A DNA stretch of 64,000 nt, from positions 7,352 through 71,351 of the IMG/VR virus record IMGVR_UViG_3300010400_000005. The stretch is one strand, 5' to 3'. Below are positions 2,060 through 57,107 of the stretch, one piece after another (the stretch's first letter is position 1; each line of letters begins with the position of its first letter). Made by a program: the position numbers and the translations under genes. Origin of the DNA: a virus. The notes beneath the pieces are model-generated. The model did not search any database. It saw nothing but the letters and a program-made list of their open reading frames with translations, and was not told the origin of the DNA.

Positions 2060-3874
2060 ATGAAAAATAGAACAGTAGCTTTCCTTTTCTTATTTCTTGC
2101 TCTTAGCTGCATCTTTATTTTGAGAAGTTCAAAAGCTGATGTAGTTAAGAGCAAGTATTTTAATTATGTTGAGAAGGGTGCAAGAGTTGTAAAGACTTCT
2201 CCTTCTACTCAATATAAGTTAATGGAAACTTATCCGCAAGCTACTGTGACTGTTTACGAAGCTGGTACATTAACACTTGCAAGTTTATGGGTGGATAGGG
2301 ATGGCCTTGTAATAAAAGCAAATCCATTTACTGCTGATACAGATTCTTTTTACTATTTCTATGTAGATTGTGGAAAGTACGATATTAAATTTAGTGGAAC
2401 TGGAATAACTTCACCTTATAGTTATGGTGATATTTTTATTTGTTCCTCATTTTCTGATAATGCTTTAACTTTTAATGTAGGAACAAGTGGAACTGATTTT
2501 AATGTTTCTCAAGTTGGATCTACTGTAACTTATAATCTACCAGATGCAAGTTTATTAAATAGAGGCGCTGTTACTATACTAGATCAGAGCTTTAATGGAA
2601 ATAAAACATTTGATGATAATGTAATAATAGATTCTGGAAATTTGCAATTCACTGGTTCAACTTCTGGAAGAATCACAATTCAACCAGCTAGTATTGCAGG
2701 TACTTATACTTTAACATTACCAGTAGATGATGGAACCTCTAATCAAGTCCTACAAACAGATGGAAATGGAATTTTAAGTTGGGCTACTGTTAGTGGTGGC
2801 GGAAGTAGTGGAACTGTCACTGACTTTTCTGCTGGAAATTTATCTCCATTATTTACAACTTCTGTAGCAAATTCTACAACAACTCCAGCTTTAACTTTTA
2901 ATTTGTCAAATGTAGCGGCCAATACTTATTTTGGTAATAACACTGGCAGTTCAGCCGCACCATCTTTCATAACACTATCTGCAACTTCTCCAATTGTAAT
3001 TTCACAAGGAGTTGGAACTACTACTCTATCTTGTCCTACTTGTGGTGGTGGGACTTTAATTAATCCTACTGATAATAGATTTCCTTATAGATCAAATGCA
3101 ACTACATTTTTAGATTCTCCATTATGGCGCGAAGATGCAAATACTGCAATTTTAAGATCAACTTTAGGATCAGGTCCGGGTTCAACTCAGATTTTTGTAG
3201 TTGCAAGAGAATATACATCTAGCTCTAGTTGGCATGGATTGTCAATGAATTGCAATAGTACGAATTGTAATCTTGCATTAATTAATAATTCTGGAAACTT
3301 AGTAGCACCAGAATTAAATATAGGTGGTGGAGATAAAATTACGTTTTATTCTGGCGGTGGACAGGGATGGCAATTTACTACAGCAAGAGATTTCATTCCA
3401 AGTGGCTCAAATGGAGCTTTTAGTATTGGAGATGTTGGACATGCTGTAAATAAGTTATGGATGAATAAGCAGATTAAATATGTAAATGTAAACGATCTTG
3501 CAACAAATTTACCTTGGATCGATCACGTTCAAACTTGGAATGATGCTTGTGCTGGTTGTGTTACTTTTACTGGATTTAAATCAAACATAACAGATACATC
3601 TAGCAATGCTGCATCATTGCTAATGGATTTACAAGTTGGTGGAGTTAGTAAGTTTAAAATAGATAAGAGTGGAAATGTGACAATAGCAGGATCTACTAAT
3701 GTAACTTCTCATTGTTATGCAGCGAATGTTTGTGATTTTTTCGGTAGTGGAAGTCCTGAAACTGTGCTTTCTGCTAATGTTGGCTCAACTTATAGAAGAA
3801 CAGATGGTGGAGCTAATGCTACATTTTATGTGAAAGAATCTGGTACTGGTAATACAGGTTGGGCTCCCAAATAA
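2060..3874 (+). CDS. Tail fibre/spike-like protein with signal peptide
   Basis: Hydrophobic N-terminus ending SKA; ATVTVYEAGT..NPFTAD..YDI head-binding-like domain; G/S/T-rich; C-terminal GSGSPE..GSTYRRTDGG..YVKESGTGNTGW motif typical of phage spikes. Confidence 0.7.
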   Translation: MKNRTVAFLFLFLALSCIFILRSSKADVVKSKYFNYVEKGARVVKTSPSTQYKLMETYPQATVTVYEAGTLTLASLWVDRDGLVIKANPFTADTDSFYYFYVDCGKYDIKFSGTGITSPYSYGDIFICSSFSDNALTFNVGTSGTDFNVSQVGSTVTYNLPDASLLNRGAVTILDQSFNGNKTFDDNVIIDSGNLQFTGSTSGRITIQPASIAGTYTLTLPVDDGTSNQVLQTDGNGILSWATVSGGGSSGTVTDFSAGNLSPLFTTSVANSTTTPALTFNLSNVAANTYFGNNTGSSAAPSFITLSATSPIVISQGVGTTTLSCPTCGGGTLINPTDNRFPYRSNATTFLDSPLWREDANTAILRSTLGSGPGSTQIFVVAREYTSSSSWHGLSMNCNSTNCNLALINNSGNLVAPELNIGGGDKITFYSGGGQGWQFTTARDFIPSGSNGAFSIGDVGHAVNKLWMNKQIKYVNVNDLATNLPWIDHVQTWNDACAGCVTFTGFKSNITDTSSNAASLLMDLQVGGVSKFKIDKSGNVTIAGSTNVTSHCYAANVCDFFGSGSPETVLSANVGSTYRRTDGGANATFYVKESGTGNTGWAPK

Positions 3875-3886
3875 ATATCAAAACTT

Positions 3887-4330
3887 ATGAAATCTTGCAT
3901 AAAATGTAACATTAGAGAAGTTTATGGAGCTAGATATTCATATTGTAAAGAATGTTAAGCTGAGATTGCTAGGAACTGGAGAGCGGTTAATAGAAATTAT
4001 ATAAGGAAAGTTAAGAAAATAAAATATGCCTCATTGACACCAGATCAAAAATGGGAAGGACATCTATGGCGACGATATGGATTGACAATTAAGCGTTATA
4101 GAAAGTTAGAAGAAGAACAAGGTGGAGTTTGTGCAATTTGCAGTGAGCAAAGCATTAGATTAAGATTATCAGTTGATCATTGTCATAATACTGGAAAAAT
4201 TAGAGGATTGTTGTGTGAACGTTGTAATACTTTACTTGGTAGAATTAAAGATAATCCAATGATTTTACTTTCTGCAATTATTTATTTGGAAGATAATGGA
4301 ATAAAGATTACAGAGGCAATATCTGAATAA
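3887..4330 (+). pseudogene. Endonuclease VII-like HNH endonuclease with in-frame stop
   Basis: CAIC..LSVDHCH.TGKIRGLLC..CN motif; ATG 3887 with CxxC..CxxC is in frame, interrupted by TAA at 3956-3958. Confidence 0.7.
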
Positions 4331-52706: not shown

Positions 52707-54777
52707 TTGCTTAGAATCTCTCTTAATCGAGCTATATTTCCCTGTTCACAGATATTTATAATTTCAAAAGATCTTAAATCTGTATTATTTATTAATACTT
52801 TATCTAAATTCTTGAGTGTAAAAAATCTTTCTATATCGTGTTTCATTGTATCTTCATCTTGCTCAGATTGAGCAATTATTTCTAGTACAACTGTGAATTT
52901 TGTTGTTTTCATAGGTTAAAATCCTCATTGCTGCTTCTAATTCAATGAAAAAACAGAGTGTGTATGAATTAGAATTAGAAGCAGGATATGAAGATTCTTT
53001 CTATAAGAAGAAACCACACTGAATGATAAAATCAAAATCAAATGGTTTAGTTGGTGACTCTGTGGTAAATTCTTTACTCAAAGTATCATTTGGATAGAAT
53101 CTCTCATATACCTTCTTCTGCAAAGAATCATCATCGTTTGCTGAGTTGACATAAATCCCATTTAGCTCTCGAAGATCTCCTTCGACTATAGCAAACTTTG
53201 GTCGTTCATCTGGAATTTCAGTTAGAATTACTAATGTTTTCATTTTATTTCCCTCCAAAAGCAATATAAAATCGTCTACTACATCTCGCTTGCGCATTCT
53301 GATAAATTTTACATAATTTATCAGGAATCATTCCATTAGTTATTGAATTAGCACATTTAGCCTCTATGATTAAGAAGCTTGCTAATGATTCAGCATGAAG
53401 TTGTTCAGCTTTTGTGCGAAAGTAGTTAGGCATATTTACTCCTTAATTTCGTAAATTTATAAACATTGGAATTGGACTAAAAAATCCTGAAATTTGATTC
53501 ATAAATTTGTCAGAATCAAACAATCCTAGATTTCTAGTCTTAACAATGCCTGTTCTTTCAGCAACAGTATCAAAATCAAGGTCTGTTACCCTCGTTACAT
53601 TTTGTTTTTCTTCATTCTCAACAAATGAAGCACCTACAGTCATTCTTTGTTTTTCATTAAGTCGCATAAATCCTCCTTAAAGGTTTTGGAAATTCAAAAA
53701 CAATCCATTGATCTGTGCATTTATGCAAACTTCTCTCAATTTCATCTTCAAATTGAAATTTACAATCTGCGCAGATAACAAATGGATTATACTCTAATTG
53801 TTTCTTCACAATTTCTTGATTTCTTCTAATTTCTGCTAAAGTTTGGAATTCATAATTCACATTTGTTGTAAATGAAAATCCACCACTTTGCTTATTAGAA
53901 GAAAAATAAAGTGCTAAACAGTGTTGTCTAGCTACTTGACAACCTTTTACTGAATTCTCACCTTGAAATACTTCTATTCCTTCACCATCGAAGACTATTA
54001 TTGTATTTCCAGCTTCGATAGCGTTGAAATGATATTTCTTTAACTTGATTTTACCTTTGTCTAATTTCTTAGCAAGGCGAGAGAATTTTTGCTGTGGAGA
54101 GAGTTTGATTAACTCTCTTTTTGGTTTTGAAATTATTTTTGCAAATCCAATTTGAAATCTCATTAGACTCGCTTCCTTACTAAAATTTGAATTCTTATTT
54201 TCACGTTTGAATTGTTTATAATTATGCTTATGAAGGAAATTACTCAACTCAAACGTGATTTATAAATTTTCAAATTTGGTTAATGAGAAAAGGCAGGAAT
54301 TAGAAACCTAAAGCGCAAACTATTCTATCAAACCATAATTTGAGCCAGTGCTTTTTGACTTCATTGTAGATTTGTTGGTTTGTCATCTTTTAGAATCTCC
54401 CATTCTGCGGACAATCAGCCGCATGTTTGTAAGGTCTGTTTCTAGGTTGGAGATTACTTAATTTGCTATTCTTACCTATGCGAATTACATAAACTTTGCA
54501 CATTAAGCATCTTTGCTTGTCTCCAACGATTAAACGCCTAACTGATTTATCAGGCATTATTACTTGACGTTTCTGTGGTGTGTAGCGGGAGCTAAACATT
54601 TTCTTCTGTTGCCTCATGTGTTACAAATAATGCATGATGATCTCCTACTAATTGAAACACATAAATTGTTTGTGTCTTAGTAGCAGAAAGAAGTAATTGT
54701 CTAACTTGCTCTGTAGGTTGCCAAAACATACGTTTTACTTCATCTTTTGTAGAATCTTGTATCTCTACATGATACAT
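52703..54777 (-). CDS. Cluster of small early hypothetical genes
   Basis: ORFs 52703, 53001, 53245, 53443, 53657, 54390, 54592, several with GGAG/GGAGG RBS. Confidence 0.5.
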
Positions 54778-54893
54778 GGTAGAAACCTCCAGAAAAAGAC
54801 ATGCAATTGCCTTGCTTGCTTCTTAAAAATGCTTTACAAGTCAATTGTGTGAGCAGAATTTCAATCAAAATGATTGAATTAATCATTTAACAA

Positions 54894-54926
54894 AGAAAGC
54901 ATGATCTATACGAGCATCATGCTTTC
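54894..54926 (-). terminator. Perfect hairpin (terminator or processing site)
   Basis: gaaagcatgat-N10-atcatgctttc 11-bp stem downstream of ORF 54970, followed by ttgtt on the minus strand. Confidence 0.55.
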
Positions 54927-54969
54927 AAAGCTAAATCATTCAATCTTACCCCTATTTGTTCGTTATTAA

Positions 54970-55341
54970 TTAATCCTCTTCCTCTTCCTCTGCTCCTGGC
55001 CCTTTAACATTAGTGAATAGCTTAGAAGTATGCAGGAGTTGATTGCCATTGCCATCAACTAAAGCAACTTCGGTATTTTCTTGCATCATTGTTAGCGCAT
55101 AGTTGACCGCGCGGCCTATTGTAGTGCGTGAAGAGACTACTTCATCTTTATTTTCAGCCTTGCGTCCCTTACGTTCTACAATTTCCAATTGTGTATCGTC
55201 TGGAAAAGGATAGAAAATTTGAACTACTAGCCCATCTACACCATCAGCTGTATCAATCTTCGCATTTACTATAGCCTTTGGTAGTGCAGGAGCTACTTTT
55301 ACCTCTTCTTTATTGATTGTTGTCACTGAAAATTTTGCCAT
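54970..55341 (-). CDS. 123-aa protein with acidic C-terminal tail
   Basis: AAGGA RBS before ATG 55341 (MAKFSV); ends GAEEEEED. Confidence 0.7.
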   Translation of the reverse strand: MAKFSVTTINKEEVKVAPALPKAIVNAKIDTADGVDGLVVQIFYPFPDDTQLEIVERKGRKAENKDEVVSSRTTIGRAVNYALTMMQENTEVALVDGNGNQLLHTSKLFTNVKGPGAEEEEED

Positions 55342-55379
55342 TGTCTTAATTTTCCTTTTCTTCTCATGAGAGAACAATG

Positions 55380-55950
55380 TGATTGATATTTAGTTATACC
55401 GTCAATCAGTTTACGGCGGCTTAGCTGAACCTTTTAGCAAGTTAGCTTATCTAAGCTTACTCCTTTTGCAAGAATAAGCTTAGTAAACTGTCAATTGATT
55501 TTTCGTCGAGGATTTGCTTTGTTGTGTTGCTTACTTATGAAAAGTCAAGCTTGTTTGGCTTATTCCTCAGTTTGATACTGTCAATTGATCTTTATTCTCT
55601 ATCTCAAGAGATTTGATTCAGCTATTCTAATTCAGGTTGCTATACCTAAGCATTTTCATTGATTAATGCGCGGCTGAATATCGCGGATTAATCTATGCTT
55701 CGCTATCTTCCGGCTTTACGGCTATTTTAGCTTAGTGATACTTAAGTCAAACATGAGCGGCTTTTGTGTCGAATAAAAGCCTCATTAGTTTCTGTCAACG
55801 GAATTACATTCGGGTTAGCTAGACTTGCAACTTTTGTGAGAATGAATAAAAACTCACTGAGCAATTACCAGCTAATTACTGAAATAAATTTTCAAACCGA
55901 AAAACCTAAGACTGACAGAAAATAACTGTGCAACTTATGTTCCGCTATCT
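55380..55950 (-). ncRNA. Candidate large structured non-coding RNA
   Basis: No ORF of 60 aa or more; many nested stems with G-U pairs favouring the minus strand (see findings). Confidence 0.6.
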
Positions 55951-56540
55951 GTCTCTCTTACTACGCTGTGCTAATTGTTGATAAATAAGACGCTTGCAAG
56001 ACTGTTGCTCTATTGACACGTGTTAATTTGGCTCATGATCTATGGAAATCTATATTGGATATTTCCAATAGTTCATAAACTCTTATAAATCAATAGTTTA
56101 GTATTCAAATTGCTAAATGTGTAATTATTACTTGTATCAATAGGAAACGCGTGTTATTTCGACACACTTTAGTATGGTATGTAAGTTGCTAGTAATATAA
56201 GGATAGTCTCTCATTCTGATTGATAATTAAACATTTAATAAATGTGAGTAAAATAGTTATTCACTAATAGTCTTCATTATGACGTGTTAAAACTAGCAAG
56301 AACTACTGAGGATTAAATAGTCTAATGTTTTTCAAAAAATATAAACTAAGTTAAAATTCATTCTTCCTTACTAATATGATTATTCTATTATTAAATAATA
56401 TGAGTAATTCACCATCAAGTTTATTAAATGAAATTGAATATCATTATCAATAATCACTAGTAGGTTGTCTAAAGGGTTGTTTTTAGGATTTTGGTATTTT
56501 GGTATTTAGAGGTTCATTCGTAAATTTTTAAAATTTTTTT

Positions 56541-56726
56541 TTATTTTTCAAGTTTATAATAATCAAACTTACCAATTTCTTCGATTCGTTCCATAATACA
56601 CATTCCACATAACATTTCTGGTCGATCTGGATAAGTAATAAGATACCACAATTCGTCGGATATTAATAAATCAACTTTATAAATTCTTCCACAACCATGA
56701 CATTTACAACCTAATTCATTATTCAT
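56541..56726 (-). CDS. Small Cys-rich zinc-binding protein
   Basis: CHGCG..DELW..LCGMC. Confidence 0.65.
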   Translation of the reverse strand: MNNELGCKCHGCGRIYKVDLLISDELWYLITYPDRPEMLCGMCIMERIEEIGKFDYYKLEK

Positions 56727-56938
56727 AATAAAAATTCGTCGAATTGGCCCCTATAGGGCCATTTCTCTAGCAAAATTTATAATTTAGCGAATAAGTTATA
56801 GCTTGCGAATAAATTATATAAACAGTGCAATATAATTGCAACAATTAATTTTAAGTAGAAAATGTGAAAATAGATAGAAATTAGCAGGTAAGGTGAGCGA
56901 GATAATATAATTTATATATTTCTCTCTTTCTGTTTTAG

Positions 56939-56967
56939 ATTTTACTCATAAATCCATAACTTGTCAA
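56939..56967 (-). promoter_or_regulatory. Leftward sigma70-like promoter
   Basis: Minus strand TTGACA (56967-62), 17 nt, TAAAAT (56944-39). Confidence 0.7.
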
Positions 56968-57059
56968 GTGTCAATTTGACTTATAATTTGAAGGTGTCAT
57001 GCTGTATTATTTAACTACACAATGAGGTCAACTTGACCTATATGGTCTAAACAGCTTTG

Positions 57060-57068
57060 TGATATACT
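57060..57068 (+). promoter_or_regulatory. Rightward extended -10 promoter
   Basis: TGaTATACT about 40 nt upstream of ORF 57108. Confidence 0.45.
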
Positions 57069-57107
57069 CTTGACGTTGAGAGAATAGTTTTATATCACAA
57101 ATCTGCT

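What the first reader, a model, noticed from the sequence alone, without database searches (positions are those of the whole stretch)
54970..55950. Large structured RNA (about 570 nt) directly upstream of an acidic-tailed protein at the head of the early operon
Seen: 55380-55950 has no ORF of 60 aa or more but shows nested stems on the minus strand. These include a 14-bp hairpin at 55451-55483 (two G-U), a 10-bp long-range stem 55422-31/55615-24, a 10-bp stem 55789-98/55912-21 enclosing ttcgg/ccgaa, ttagctgg/ctagctaa and gtgag/ctcac, plus aagcat..gattaat..cgcg/cgcg..attaatc..atgctt and atgag.gctttt/aaaagc.ctcat. Most imperfect pairs are G-U on the minus strand but would be A-C on the plus strand, which points to RNA-level selection. 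The element is followed by a 123-aa protein with an EEEEED tail (a feature of nucleic-acid-binding proteins) and a closing hairpin. Inference: a phage large ncRNA (conceptually like ROOL/GOLLD, but I cannot match it to a family), possibly forming an RNP with the adjacent protein. This is my best candidate for an undescribed system.
Basis: partly seen in the sequence, partly recalled or inferred. Interest (0 to 1): 0.82.

Follow-up and report, generated by a model that had tools for sequence, protein, structure and literature searches.

The report
New large pseudoknotted phage leader RNA
A roughly 480-base stretch with no gene, at the head of a soil phage's early genes, folds into a conserved multi-helix structure with a pseudoknot that matches no known RNA family, so it is probably a new kind of large phage RNA whose job is still unknown.

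Summary
Window 55921-55444 (minus strand) has no conserved ORF. It folds better than shuffles in the window (z -4.5) and in four related soil-phage contigs (z -4.9 to -5.6), the only relatives I could fetch. Base-pair covariation is strong. With four sequences, 31 of 117 predicted pairs change on both sides and 98% of cells pair, against 29-42% in slid controls. With the distant fifth sequence, 18 of 42 pairs (domain I) and 21 of 39 (domain III) change on both sides. I also found a pseudoknot: the helix 11 loop (55679-55673) pairs with a downstream linker (55622-55616), and all five sequences keep it with four different letter combinations. No Rfam 15 family matches, even at E<=10.

The G-U versus A-C strand test is not decisive as stated. 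The 10-bp stem 55422-31/55615-24 has no clean covariation support. Minus-strand RNA is still favoured, moderately, by gene orientation, z-scores and 3 versus 0 wobble positions in a strand-neutral test.

There is no transcript evidence. An RNP with the neighbouring 123-aa acidic-tailed protein is untested. Three relatives carry a variable small-ORF cassette between the RNA and that gene. My best reading is a cis-acting, compactly folded 5' leader of the first early transcription unit. The scan noted this stretch once before on the same genome, not on other DNA.

The parts
55929..55943 (-). Conserved bipartite motif GG-N10-GC (GGAA..N..TTGCA) just upstream of P1. Candidate -24/-12 (sigma-54-type) promoter.
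   Evidence: Same spacing in all 5 sequences while the flanks vary. Not enriched elsewhere in the window: 6 found against 5.8 expected. The phage has no sigma-54 or activator gene. The sigma-54 consensus is recalled, so the promoter role is inference.
55789..55921 (-). Domain I. P1 (10 bp, 55921-55912/55798-55789) closes H3 (55901-55897/55813-55809), hairpin H4 (55895-55879), H5 (55874-55868/55822-55816), H6 (55864-55861/55828-55825) and H7 (55857-55853/55840-55836) with a conserved 12-nt loop.
   Evidence: RNAalifold. CM R1 scores 199-204 bits in the 4 close sequences and 81.7 bits (E 2.6e-16) in the distant L015. Together with H8, 18 of 42 pairs change on both sides, and 98.1% of cells pair against 33-48% when slid.
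55759..55781 (-). Hairpin H8. The stem is fully swapped between relatives and the loop motif TCGACAC is kept in the 4 close sequences.
   Evidence: 4 of 5 pairs change on both sides.
55697..55736 (-). H9/H10 bent hairpin.
   Evidence: 5 of 10 pairs change on both sides among the 4 close sequences. Poorly alignable in L015.
55659..55695 (-). H11 long hairpin. Its loop (55681-55673) is the 5' half of the pseudoknot.
   Evidence: 4 of 12 pairs change on both sides. L015 has an analogous hairpin with other letters.
55616..55622 (-). Linker segment that pairs with the H11 loop 55679-55673 (pseudoknot, 7 bp).
   Evidence: 28 of 28 cells paired, 2 pairs changed on both sides, 0-39% paired when slid, 41 of 500 shuffles as good. 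It was the only unpaired-to-unpaired complementarity with covariation in a systematic scan. L015 keeps 6 bp with different letters, at 3163-3168 and 3232-3237.
55632..55649 (-). Hairpin H12.
   Evidence: 2 of 7 pairs change on both sides. This is the one middle-domain element that R3 still aligns in L015.
55490..55589 (-). Domain III. The long-range helices H13-H15 enclose a variable-tip hairpin.
   Evidence: CM R2 scores 159-171 bits in the 4 close sequences and 38.1 bits (E 2e-6) in L015. With H17, 21 of 39 pairs change on both sides, and 96.4% of cells pair against 30-44% when slid. The tip hairpin refolds with different letters in 3 of the 4 close sequences.
55444..55489 (-). H17, a 20-bp hairpin at the 3' edge of the covarying structure. 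No U-run follows it.
   Evidence: 11 of 20 pairs change on both sides with 5 sequences. In L015 the stem has entirely different letters.
55342..55443 (-). Conserved leader of the 123-aa gene. It holds hairpin L1 (55447-55423), hairpin L2 (55407-55402/55386-55381), a perfect 10-bp palindrome (55371-55362) and the RBS AAGGA (55357-55353). In L002, L004 and L005 a cassette of about 275-300 nt with a small ORF sits at its 5' edge.
   Evidence: L2 changes on both sides in L005 and in L015. A soil contig joins 55418/55442 with 302 other letters between.
54970..55341 (-). Gene for a 123-aa all-beta protein with an acidic C-terminal tail.
   Evidence: 8 close homologues and 13 representatives by profile search. 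No Pfam or PHROG family. Model pLDDT 69.5 with no fold match, best E 0.8.
54876..54945 (-). Long hairpin after the 123-aa gene, terminator-like and followed by a T-rich run.
   Evidence: Inverted repeat I1. L002 keeps the start of it. L015 has a long hairpin at the same place (the miRNA-like chance hits at 3873-3967).
55950..56330 (-). Upstream conserved non-coding DNA with sequence blocks but no covariation. Probably a control region, and outside the RNA.
   Evidence: The consensus fold has 1 compensatory pair out of 32 and a positive covariation term. GC is 0.23-0.30 here against 0.355-0.38 in the RNA.

Best explanation
Window 55921-55444 encodes a new family of large (about 480 nt) structured RNA. 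It is read from the minus strand as the 5' leader of the first leftward (early) transcription unit. It is built from two long-range-closed domains (I and III) and a middle set of hairpins. At least one pseudoknot (H11 loop with a downstream linker) ties the fold together.

I think it most likely acts in cis. It would fold as it is made, right after a promoter that abuts P1. It would then set the output of the genes behind it (the optional small-ORF cassette, the 123-aa protein and possibly more), through transcript elongation, stability or translation.

Shown: conservation, covariation, the pseudoknot, the absence of an ORF, no known family, and position and synteny.

Inferred: that it is RNA rather than single-stranded DNA, the strand, the promoter, and the whole cis-regulatory mechanism.

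My odds:
- A real selected structure: about 0.95.
- Minus-strand RNA: about 0.8.
- Cis-acting leader as its main role: about 0.4.
For: Fold. z is -4.5 to -5.6 on the sense strand in the four close sequences and -4.9 in L015.

Covariation:
- 31 of 117 pairs change on both sides; 98.1% of cells pair against 29-42% when slid; 0 of 500 shuffles do as well.
- With 5 sequences, 18 of 42 pairs and 21 of 39 pairs change on both sides.
- Pseudoknot: 28 of 28 cells paired with 2 double changes. It is kept with new letters in L015.

Not a gene and not a known RNA. There is no conserved ORF (indels). No Rfam family matches: 0 at gathering in the window, and only chance miRNA/snoRNA hits at E<=10.

Strand:
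- The flanking genes on both sides are on the minus strand.
- Sense z is more negative than antisense in 4 of 4 sequences.
- At helix-interior positions flanked by strand-neutral pairs there are 6 G-U cells (3 positions) and 0 A-C.
- The pseudoknot has a G-U in 2 sequences.

Leader role:
- H17 has no U-run, so transcription should read on into the ORFs.
- The structure starts within about 10 nt of a conserved bipartite motif.
- Upstream DNA is conserved without covariation.
- The RNA stays in place whether or not a cassette follows: 3 loci with one, 2 without.
- A terminator-like hairpin closes the unit after the 123-aa gene.
- Synteny extends to the downstream 196-aa protein, 50% identical in L015.
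Against: There is no transcript evidence, so start, end, strand and processing are unknown.

Only 5 full sequences from one narrow clade exist, and four are 84-89% alike (mean column identity). Part of the covariation is therefore a few events counted several times.

Consensus folding energy is nearly the same on both strands (-109.2 against -106.4). The wobble count is symmetric when each strand gets its own prediction.

No terminator/antiterminator pair or other obvious expression platform is visible between the RNA and the ORFs. The regulatory mechanism is therefore a guess.

About 480 nt with a pseudoknot is far more than known leaders need. That fits a trans-acting or catalytic role at least as well.

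The middle domain is poorly conserved in L015: R3 gives no hit with default filters and 12.5 bits with filters off.

The candidate promoter is not a sigma-70 type. No conserved sigma-70-like site was found, and the phage encodes no sigma-54 or activator.
Confidence: 0.42

Rival explanations
1. It is a trans-acting stable RNA. After or without processing from the leader, the folded RNA works on its own or as an RNP. It might bind the co-transcribed 123-aa acidic-tailed protein or a host factor, or assemble into a larger particle as ROOL, GOLLD and OLE do. Its task would be one the phage needs early, such as host takeover or counter-defence.
For: The size, the number of helices, the conserved loops and linkers and the pseudoknot are typical of RNAs with a three-dimensional job. 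The RNA and the protein family co-occur in 5 of 5 loci inside one unit bounded by a terminator-like hairpin. Conserved unpaired stretches: 153 of 258 unpaired columns are invariant.
Against: The protein has no known RNA-binding family or fold. Three loci put an unrelated ORF cassette between RNA and protein. The RNA has no terminator of its own after H17. No antisense target longer than 14 nt exists in the phage genome.
Confidence: 0.3
2. It is a replication-origin element. The transcript, or the displaced single strand of DNA, folds at the origin and serves as pre-primer or priming signal for the phage's family A polymerase. This would compare with the roughly 550-nt ColE1 RNA II or with single-strand origins of rolling-circle replicons (both recalled).
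For: The element lies in the divergent region from which both gene blocks run outwards. Cumulative GC skew turns there, at window about 56-57 kb, with the opposite turn at about 30.6 kb. The phage encodes a family A polymerase. Covariation alone cannot tell RNA from single-stranded DNA.
Against: The GC skew follows gene orientation and need not mark an origin. No iterons, AT-rich unwinding block or initiator gene were identified next to it. G-U(T) wobbles inside helices and a pseudoknot are commoner in RNA. The structure is directly followed by translated genes.
Confidence: 0.12
3. It is a DNA-level feature only: a cluster of dyad-symmetric protein-binding sites or cruciforms in a control region, with no role for a folded transcript.
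For: The neighbouring upstream region does look like DNA-level control: conserved blocks, a repeated dyad motif and no covariation. The leader holds a perfect 10-bp palindrome that stays perfect with other letters in L015. The shared helices are almost all Watson-Crick.
Against: Long-range helices of 100-133 nt span (P1, H13) and a loop-to-linker pseudoknot covary, which operator sites do not need. Stems change freely while loops are kept. Helix-interior wobbles are G-U on one strand only.
Confidence: 0.05

Closest known systems
ROOL, GOLLD and OLE: large ornate bacterial and phage-associated non-coding RNAs (PMC12286853; I saw the search listing and the start of the abstract only)
   Same: Several hundred nucleotides long, many helices, covariation-supported, no ORF, function not evident from context. 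GOLLD and ROOL are often carried by phages (recalled).
   Different: No covariance-model match to any of them. This one sits as a 5' leader directly ahead of translated genes and has no terminator of its own. It is known from only 5 loci of one soil-phage clade. Whether it forms homo-oligomers is unknown.
Cis-acting leader RNAs that modify the transcribing polymerase, such as the put RNAs of phage HK022 (recalled, no paper read)
   Same: Placed immediately after an early promoter and ahead of the early genes. It would act in cis as it is made.
   Different: Those are about 70 nt with two stem-loops. This is about 480 nt with some 17 helices and a pseudoknot. No downstream terminators that it would override were identified, except the hairpin after the 123-aa gene.
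Candidate structured RNAs of viruses from IMG/VR (Fremin, Bhatt, Kyrpides 2023, PMC10690425; I read the abstract and section 2.1)
   Same: Intergenic, covarying and found by comparing IMG/VR contigs. Many are proposed to be cis-regulatory structures upstream of genes.
   Different: Those candidates are 29-151 nt and needed hits in at least 3 unique IMG/VR regions. This element is about 480 nt. My scans of the IMG/VR copy found it in only 2 other contigs. Whether a piece of it is among the 8,495 DNA-virus candidates could not be checked, because the supplements are closed.
ColE1 RNA II pre-primer (recalled)
   Same: A folded RNA of about 500 nt, transcribed towards or at a putative origin in a replicon that uses a family A polymerase.
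   Different: No evidence of an R-loop site, an RNase H cut site or an antisense regulator. The transcript continues into protein genes.

Membership tests
Any Rfam 15 family (4227 models, including ROOL, GOLLD, OLE, HEARO, raiA, group I/II introns, riboswitches, T-box, 6S, tmRNA, RNase P) | Covariance-model score at or above the family's gathering threshold | tested here: not met
   0 matches in the whole window. At E<=10 in 55250-57100 there were only 3 chance-level miRNA/snoRNA hits of 17-19 bits, against gathering scores of 44-68. None fell in the RNA region of L002, L004, L005 or L015.
tRNA / tmRNA | ARAGORN detection | tested here: not met
   0 genes in the window.
Conserved structured RNA (generic) | Folding energy better than dinucleotide shuffles in each homologue | tested here: met
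Conserved structured RNA (generic) | Compensatory base-pair changes beyond shuffled and slid controls | tested here: met
   Pairs with double-sided changes number 31 of 117, 18 of 42 and 21 of 39. Slid controls give 0-3 such pairs, and 0 of 500 shuffles reach the observed count. Caveat: few, related sequences, and A17 and A18 were fitted to the model.
Conserved structured RNA (generic) | Evidence of transcription on the proposed strand | not testable with these tools
   The 9 listed runs are all on record as DNA, and only contigs could be laid.
RNP with the adjacent 123-aa protein | The protein has an RNA-binding family or fold, or binding is shown | tested here: not met
   No Pfam or PHROG family. 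No Foldseek match, best E 0.8 and TM at most 0.27. The Atlas gave nothing. Binding itself is not testable here.
Sigma-54-type promoter | GG and GC elements 10 nt apart (-24/-12) with TTGCA at -12 (consensus recalled) | tested here: inconclusive
   The motif and its spacing are kept in 5 of 5 sequences. The -24 half matches the recalled consensus only partly. There is no enrichment in the genome, no phage activator or sigma-54 gene, and the host is unknown.
Protein-coding region | An open frame conserved among homologues | tested here: not met
   The longest stop-free runs are 39-66 codons, none kept in place. Single-base indels differ between sequences.

The most novel reading that the evidence does not exclude
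This is a new class of large, compactly folded phage RNA with a job of its own, not a mere leader. It could be an RNA machine or scaffold: a ribozyme, an RNP with the acidic-tailed protein, or a self-assembling particle like ROOL or GOLLD. The phage would make it first on infection, next to a slot where small accessory genes are swapped in and out.
Probability: 0.3. Interest if true: 0.85.

Novelty: new variant of a known kind. Interest (0 to 1): 0.7.

Why it matters
Bacterial and phage RNAs of several hundred nucleotides with many covarying helices and tertiary contacts are rare. Those studied so far turned out to be ribozymes, RNP scaffolds or self-assembling particles. This one is well defined: boundaries, 17 helices, a pseudoknot and three covariance models. 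It matches nothing in Rfam and sits at the first place an infecting phage is likely to transcribe. It can therefore be tested directly by in-vitro folding, cryo-EM and protein binding, even though the host is unknown. Its narrow distribution (5 loci, all from soil or rhizosphere samples or unnamed IMG/VR records) and the lack of transcript data limit what can be claimed now.

Tried and rejected
Known families. Rfam at gathering and at E<=10 on the window and on four homologues gave nothing relevant. ARAGORN gave nothing.

Cultured relatives. blastn of 55300-56600 against 50,697 phage records found no match. The large terminase finds only two Tunturiibacter phages at 23% identity, so the host stays unknown.

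More homologues:
- IMG/VR was scanned 8 times. Only two other contigs turned up (L002=L006=L007 and L015=L016). One chance hit lay inside a 689-aa ORF (L008) and was rejected.
- One metagenome scan gave L004 and L005.
- Genome contigs hold no relative of the protein.
- A 22-base pattern from hairpin H4 hit six contig ends of Iningainema tapete. The alignment shows a terminal repeat of about 77 nt from a multicopy element that shares only about 30 AT-rich bases with the RNA. I treat this as chance.
- A scan with the VWA protein found nothing.

Expression. No RNA holder was listed among the 9 runs. The four runs I laid are DNA contigs covering only parts of the stretch. Contig fragments from three of them are consistent with the structure. 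X3 looks like L002. One X8 contig does not keep P1 but is short and of low depth. None of this counts as evidence on expression.

Strand by wobble counting. I replaced it with an interior, strand-neutral test.

The 90-nt-spaced repeat (D6/D9) is the two arms of helix 13 around a palindromic core. In the relatives the second copy differs. Rejected.

TTGAC enrichment. There are 6 copies on the sense strand in 619 nt, against 0.69 per kb in the genome. L015 does not keep them. Several lie in helices and none has a conserved -10 partner. They are not promoters, and I dropped the motif as a deep feature.

Antisense targets in the phage genome. None is longer than 14 nt.

Protein. The second reached pLDDT 69.5 but had no fold match. 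Levivirus coat proteins appear among the chance-level rows (E 2.8, TM 0.20), and I give them no weight. The ESM Atlas had no usable hit.

Papers. A search for sigma-54 plus phage early genes returned 0 papers. Two searches on large or structured phage RNAs gave the two papers cited. Neither can be compared at sequence level here, because the supplements are closed. No claim that the element is absent from print goes beyond these three searches.
Full report
SETTING. The window is bases 7352-71351 of a 71,351-bp IMG/VR phage record. Its two ends are identical over 123 bp, most simply an assembly circle, and its GC content is 32.8%. Structural and late genes run on the plus strand. These include an M23-peptidase-bearing 2659-aa protein and a terminase. 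The minus strand from 55377 down to 29782 carries replication-type genes: VWA/DUF2786, an FtsK-like ATPase and a family A polymerase with a UDG domain. The finding lies in the divergent region between the two blocks. It sits between a 61-aa minus-strand gene (56541-56726) and the 123-aa minus-strand gene (54970-55341). The phage is far from cultured ones: the terminase is 23% identical to Tunturiibacter phages, and the intergenic DNA has no blastn match.

THE OBSERVATION. The interval 55380-55950 folds at -144.5 kcal/mol against -116.7 +/- 6.2 for shuffles on the minus strand (z -4.51, 0 of 100 as good). The plus strand gives z -2.97. GC content is 0.355-0.38 inside the element and 0.225-0.295 just upstream.

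HOMOLOGUES. The 123-aa protein has 8 close relatives in 5.8 billion proteins and 13 representatives in a full HMMER profile search. Through pattern scans I obtained four other loci:
- L002, an IMG/VR contig also returned as L003, L006 and L007.
- L004 and L005, metagenome contigs.
- L015, an IMG/VR contig whose protein is only 39% identical.
Further scans found no more. L015 has the same layout. A small Cys-rich gene (not significantly similar to the window's) is followed by about 1120 nt without a gene, then the protein, then a homologue (50% identity) of the window's 196-aa protein.

COVARIATION. A MAFFT alignment of the four close sequences (A4) gives an RNAalifold consensus of 117 pairs in 17 helices, and 31 of those pairs change on both sides. 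Counted against controls:
- 98.1% of 468 cells form standard pairs, against 29-42% when the 3' partners are slid by 1-3 columns.
- 31 pairs with double changes, against 0-1 in slid controls.
- 0 of 500 column shuffles reach the observed values for four of the five measures.

I built covariance models for domain I plus H8 (R1), domain III plus H17 (R2) and the middle hairpins (R3). R1 finds L015 at 81.7 bits (E 2.6e-16) and R2 at 38.1 bits (E 2e-6). R3 finds it only weakly, 12.5 bits with filters off. On the five-sequence model alignments, 18 of 42 and 21 of 39 pairs change on both sides. Of the cells, 98.1% and 96.4% pair, against 30-48% when slid. These two alignments are fitted to the model, which favours it. 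A4 is not fitted. Whole stems are rewritten while their positions and some loops stay: H8, the tip hairpin of domain III, and H17 in L015. L015 on its own folds at z -4.91 with the same domain III and H17 layout. The four close sequences are 84-89% alike in mean column identity, so many counted cells stem from few events. The distant L015 is what gives the result weight.

A PSEUDOKNOT. I scanned all unpaired-to-unpaired complementarities kept in all four sequences. Only one had changes on both sides: the H11 loop (55679-55673) with a linker after H12 (55622-55616). All 28 cells pair, two positions change on both sides giving three letter combinations, and slid controls pair 0-39%. With four sequences the shuffle control is weak, as 41 of 500 do as well. 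L015 has a different loop and a different linker at the equivalent places, and these are again complementary over 6 bp. The bases next to the linker (GAATAG) could also pair with the conserved H7 loop, but nothing varies there, so that stays a suggestion. It is complementary in the window. In the relatives the linker's changes track the H11 loop, not the leader. I cannot exclude it as an alternative pairing.

BOUNDARIES. Upstream of about 55935 the DNA is still conserved in blocks, but a consensus fold has one compensatory pair in 32 and a positive covariation term. That part looks like DNA-level control. It contains a dyad motif present three times (family D1).

Just ahead of P1 all five sequences keep GG-N10-GC with TTGCA in the second half, while the surroundings vary. 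This is the spacing of -24/-12 promoters (recalled consensus), and it would start the RNA at or a few bases before P1. It is a single occurrence with no enrichment. The phage has no sigma-54 or activator gene. No conserved sigma-70-like site was found either.

Downstream, H17 is not followed by a U-run. In L002, L004 and L005 a cassette of about 275-300 nt follows. It carries a 65-66-aa Cys-rich ORF in L002 and L005, an unrelated 77-aa ORF in L004, and a conserved hairpin. The cassette is bounded by near-repeats of ATAAGCTAAC. The window and L015 lack it, and a soil contig shows the same join with 302 other letters. Then comes a leader of about 100 nt that is almost identical in the close relatives. 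One of its hairpins changes on both sides in L005 and L015. A perfect 10-bp palindrome next to the RBS is again a perfect palindrome with other letters in L015. The 123-aa gene starts at the ATG at 55341, because the upstream TTG is out of frame in L002. A long terminator-like hairpin follows the gene.

STRAND, AND RNA VERSUS DNA. Folding the reverse-complement alignment gives a similar energy (-106.4 against -109.2) and its own 37 wobble cells, and the 95 shared pairs are almost all Watson-Crick. Three weaker lines favour the minus strand:
- All neighbouring genes, and the cassette ORFs, are on the minus strand.
- z-scores are lower on that strand in 4 of 4 sequences.
- At helix-interior positions flanked by strand-neutral pairs there are 6 G-U cells at 3 positions and no A-C, plus a G-U in the pseudoknot.
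Covariation cannot separate RNA from folded single-stranded DNA. No RNA run is on record.

WHAT IT IS NOT. It is not any Rfam 15 family. It is not a tRNA or tmRNA. It is not a gene (indels). It is not a tandem duplication, because the repeat is the two arms of H13. It is not an antisense regulator of another phage gene, since complementarity reaches at most 14 nt. The TTGAC enrichment is clade-specific and is lost in L015.

THE PROTEIN. It is small and all-beta, with a flexible Gly-Pro-Gly-Ala stretch and an acidic tail. It has no Pfam or PHROG family. The model reached pLDDT 69.5 with 18 sequences, had no structural neighbour, and the Atlas had nothing. Its link to the RNA is co-occurrence in 5 of 5 loci, within what looks like one transcription unit.

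MECHANISM. I commit, at about 0.4, to a cis-acting folded leader. It would be made first from a promoter abutting P1. It would fold into a compact pseudoknotted body and control what happens to the transcript behind it. The main rival, at about 0.3, is a trans-acting RNA or RNP, which the size and tertiary contact suit well. A role at the replication origin gets about 0.12. It is suggested by the position at the divergence point, where cumulative GC skew turns, and by the family A polymerase. A purely DNA-level reading is unlikely, at about 0.05. All four need transcript mapping and probing to be separated.

NOVELTY. At family level it is new. There is no Rfam match. The one large survey of viral structured RNAs I could read (PMC10690425, abstract and section 2.1) reports candidates of 29-151 nt that needed at least three IMG/VR regions. 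As a kind of thing (a large structured phage RNA, or a structured leader) it has precedents. I therefore file it as a new variant of a known kind, with a 0.3 chance that it is something more.

Noticed in passing
window 56147-56166, 56016-56035, 56964-56983: Three copies of a 20-nt motif with a GTGT-N7-ACAC dyad lie in the divergent control region. Two of them are kept in the relatives, L015 included. One half resembles the conserved H8 loop motif read on the other strand. They may be operator or activator sites.
   Followed up: partly
L002 3630-3905, L004 about 1170-1450, L005 about 2305-2570 (inserted at window about 55443): A variable small-ORF cassette sits between the RNA and the leader. 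L002 and L005 carry homologous 65-66-aa Cys-rich proteins, and L004 an unrelated 77-aa acidic protein. Each is followed by a conserved 11-bp hairpin and bounded by near-repeats of ATAAGCTAAC. The window and L015 have no cassette. It looks like a gene-swapping slot.
   Followed up: partly
window 55362-55371 (L015 about 3461-3470): A perfect 10-bp palindrome lies a few bases ahead of the RBS of the 123-aa gene. In L015 it is replaced by a different but again perfect 10-bp palindrome. Symmetry through the centre suggests a dimeric DNA-binding site or an RNA dimerisation site.
   Followed up: no
L009-L014 (Iningainema tapete contig ends): A terminal sequence of about 77 nt from a multicopy element at six contig ends of a cyanobacterial genome shares about 30 AT-rich bases with hairpin H4 of the RNA. 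There is no similarity beyond that, so this is probably chance.
   Followed up: yes
window 53657-54247 (minus): A 196-aa protein of no known family, with a Cys-containing C-terminal part, is 50% identical to the syntenic gene in the distant locus L015. This makes it a conserved member of the early block.
   Followed up: partly
whole genome (window about 30.6 kb and about 56-57 kb): Cumulative GC skew peaks where the two gene blocks converge and turns again in the divergent region that holds the RNA. The record's ends are a 123-bp exact repeat with the terminase gene next to the end, so the map is probably circular or permuted.
   Followed up: partly
window 56541-56726 (minus) and L015 2151-2369: A small CxxC-containing gene stands upstream of the non-coding region in both the window and L015, but the two proteins are not significantly similar (E 1.9).
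   Followed up: partly
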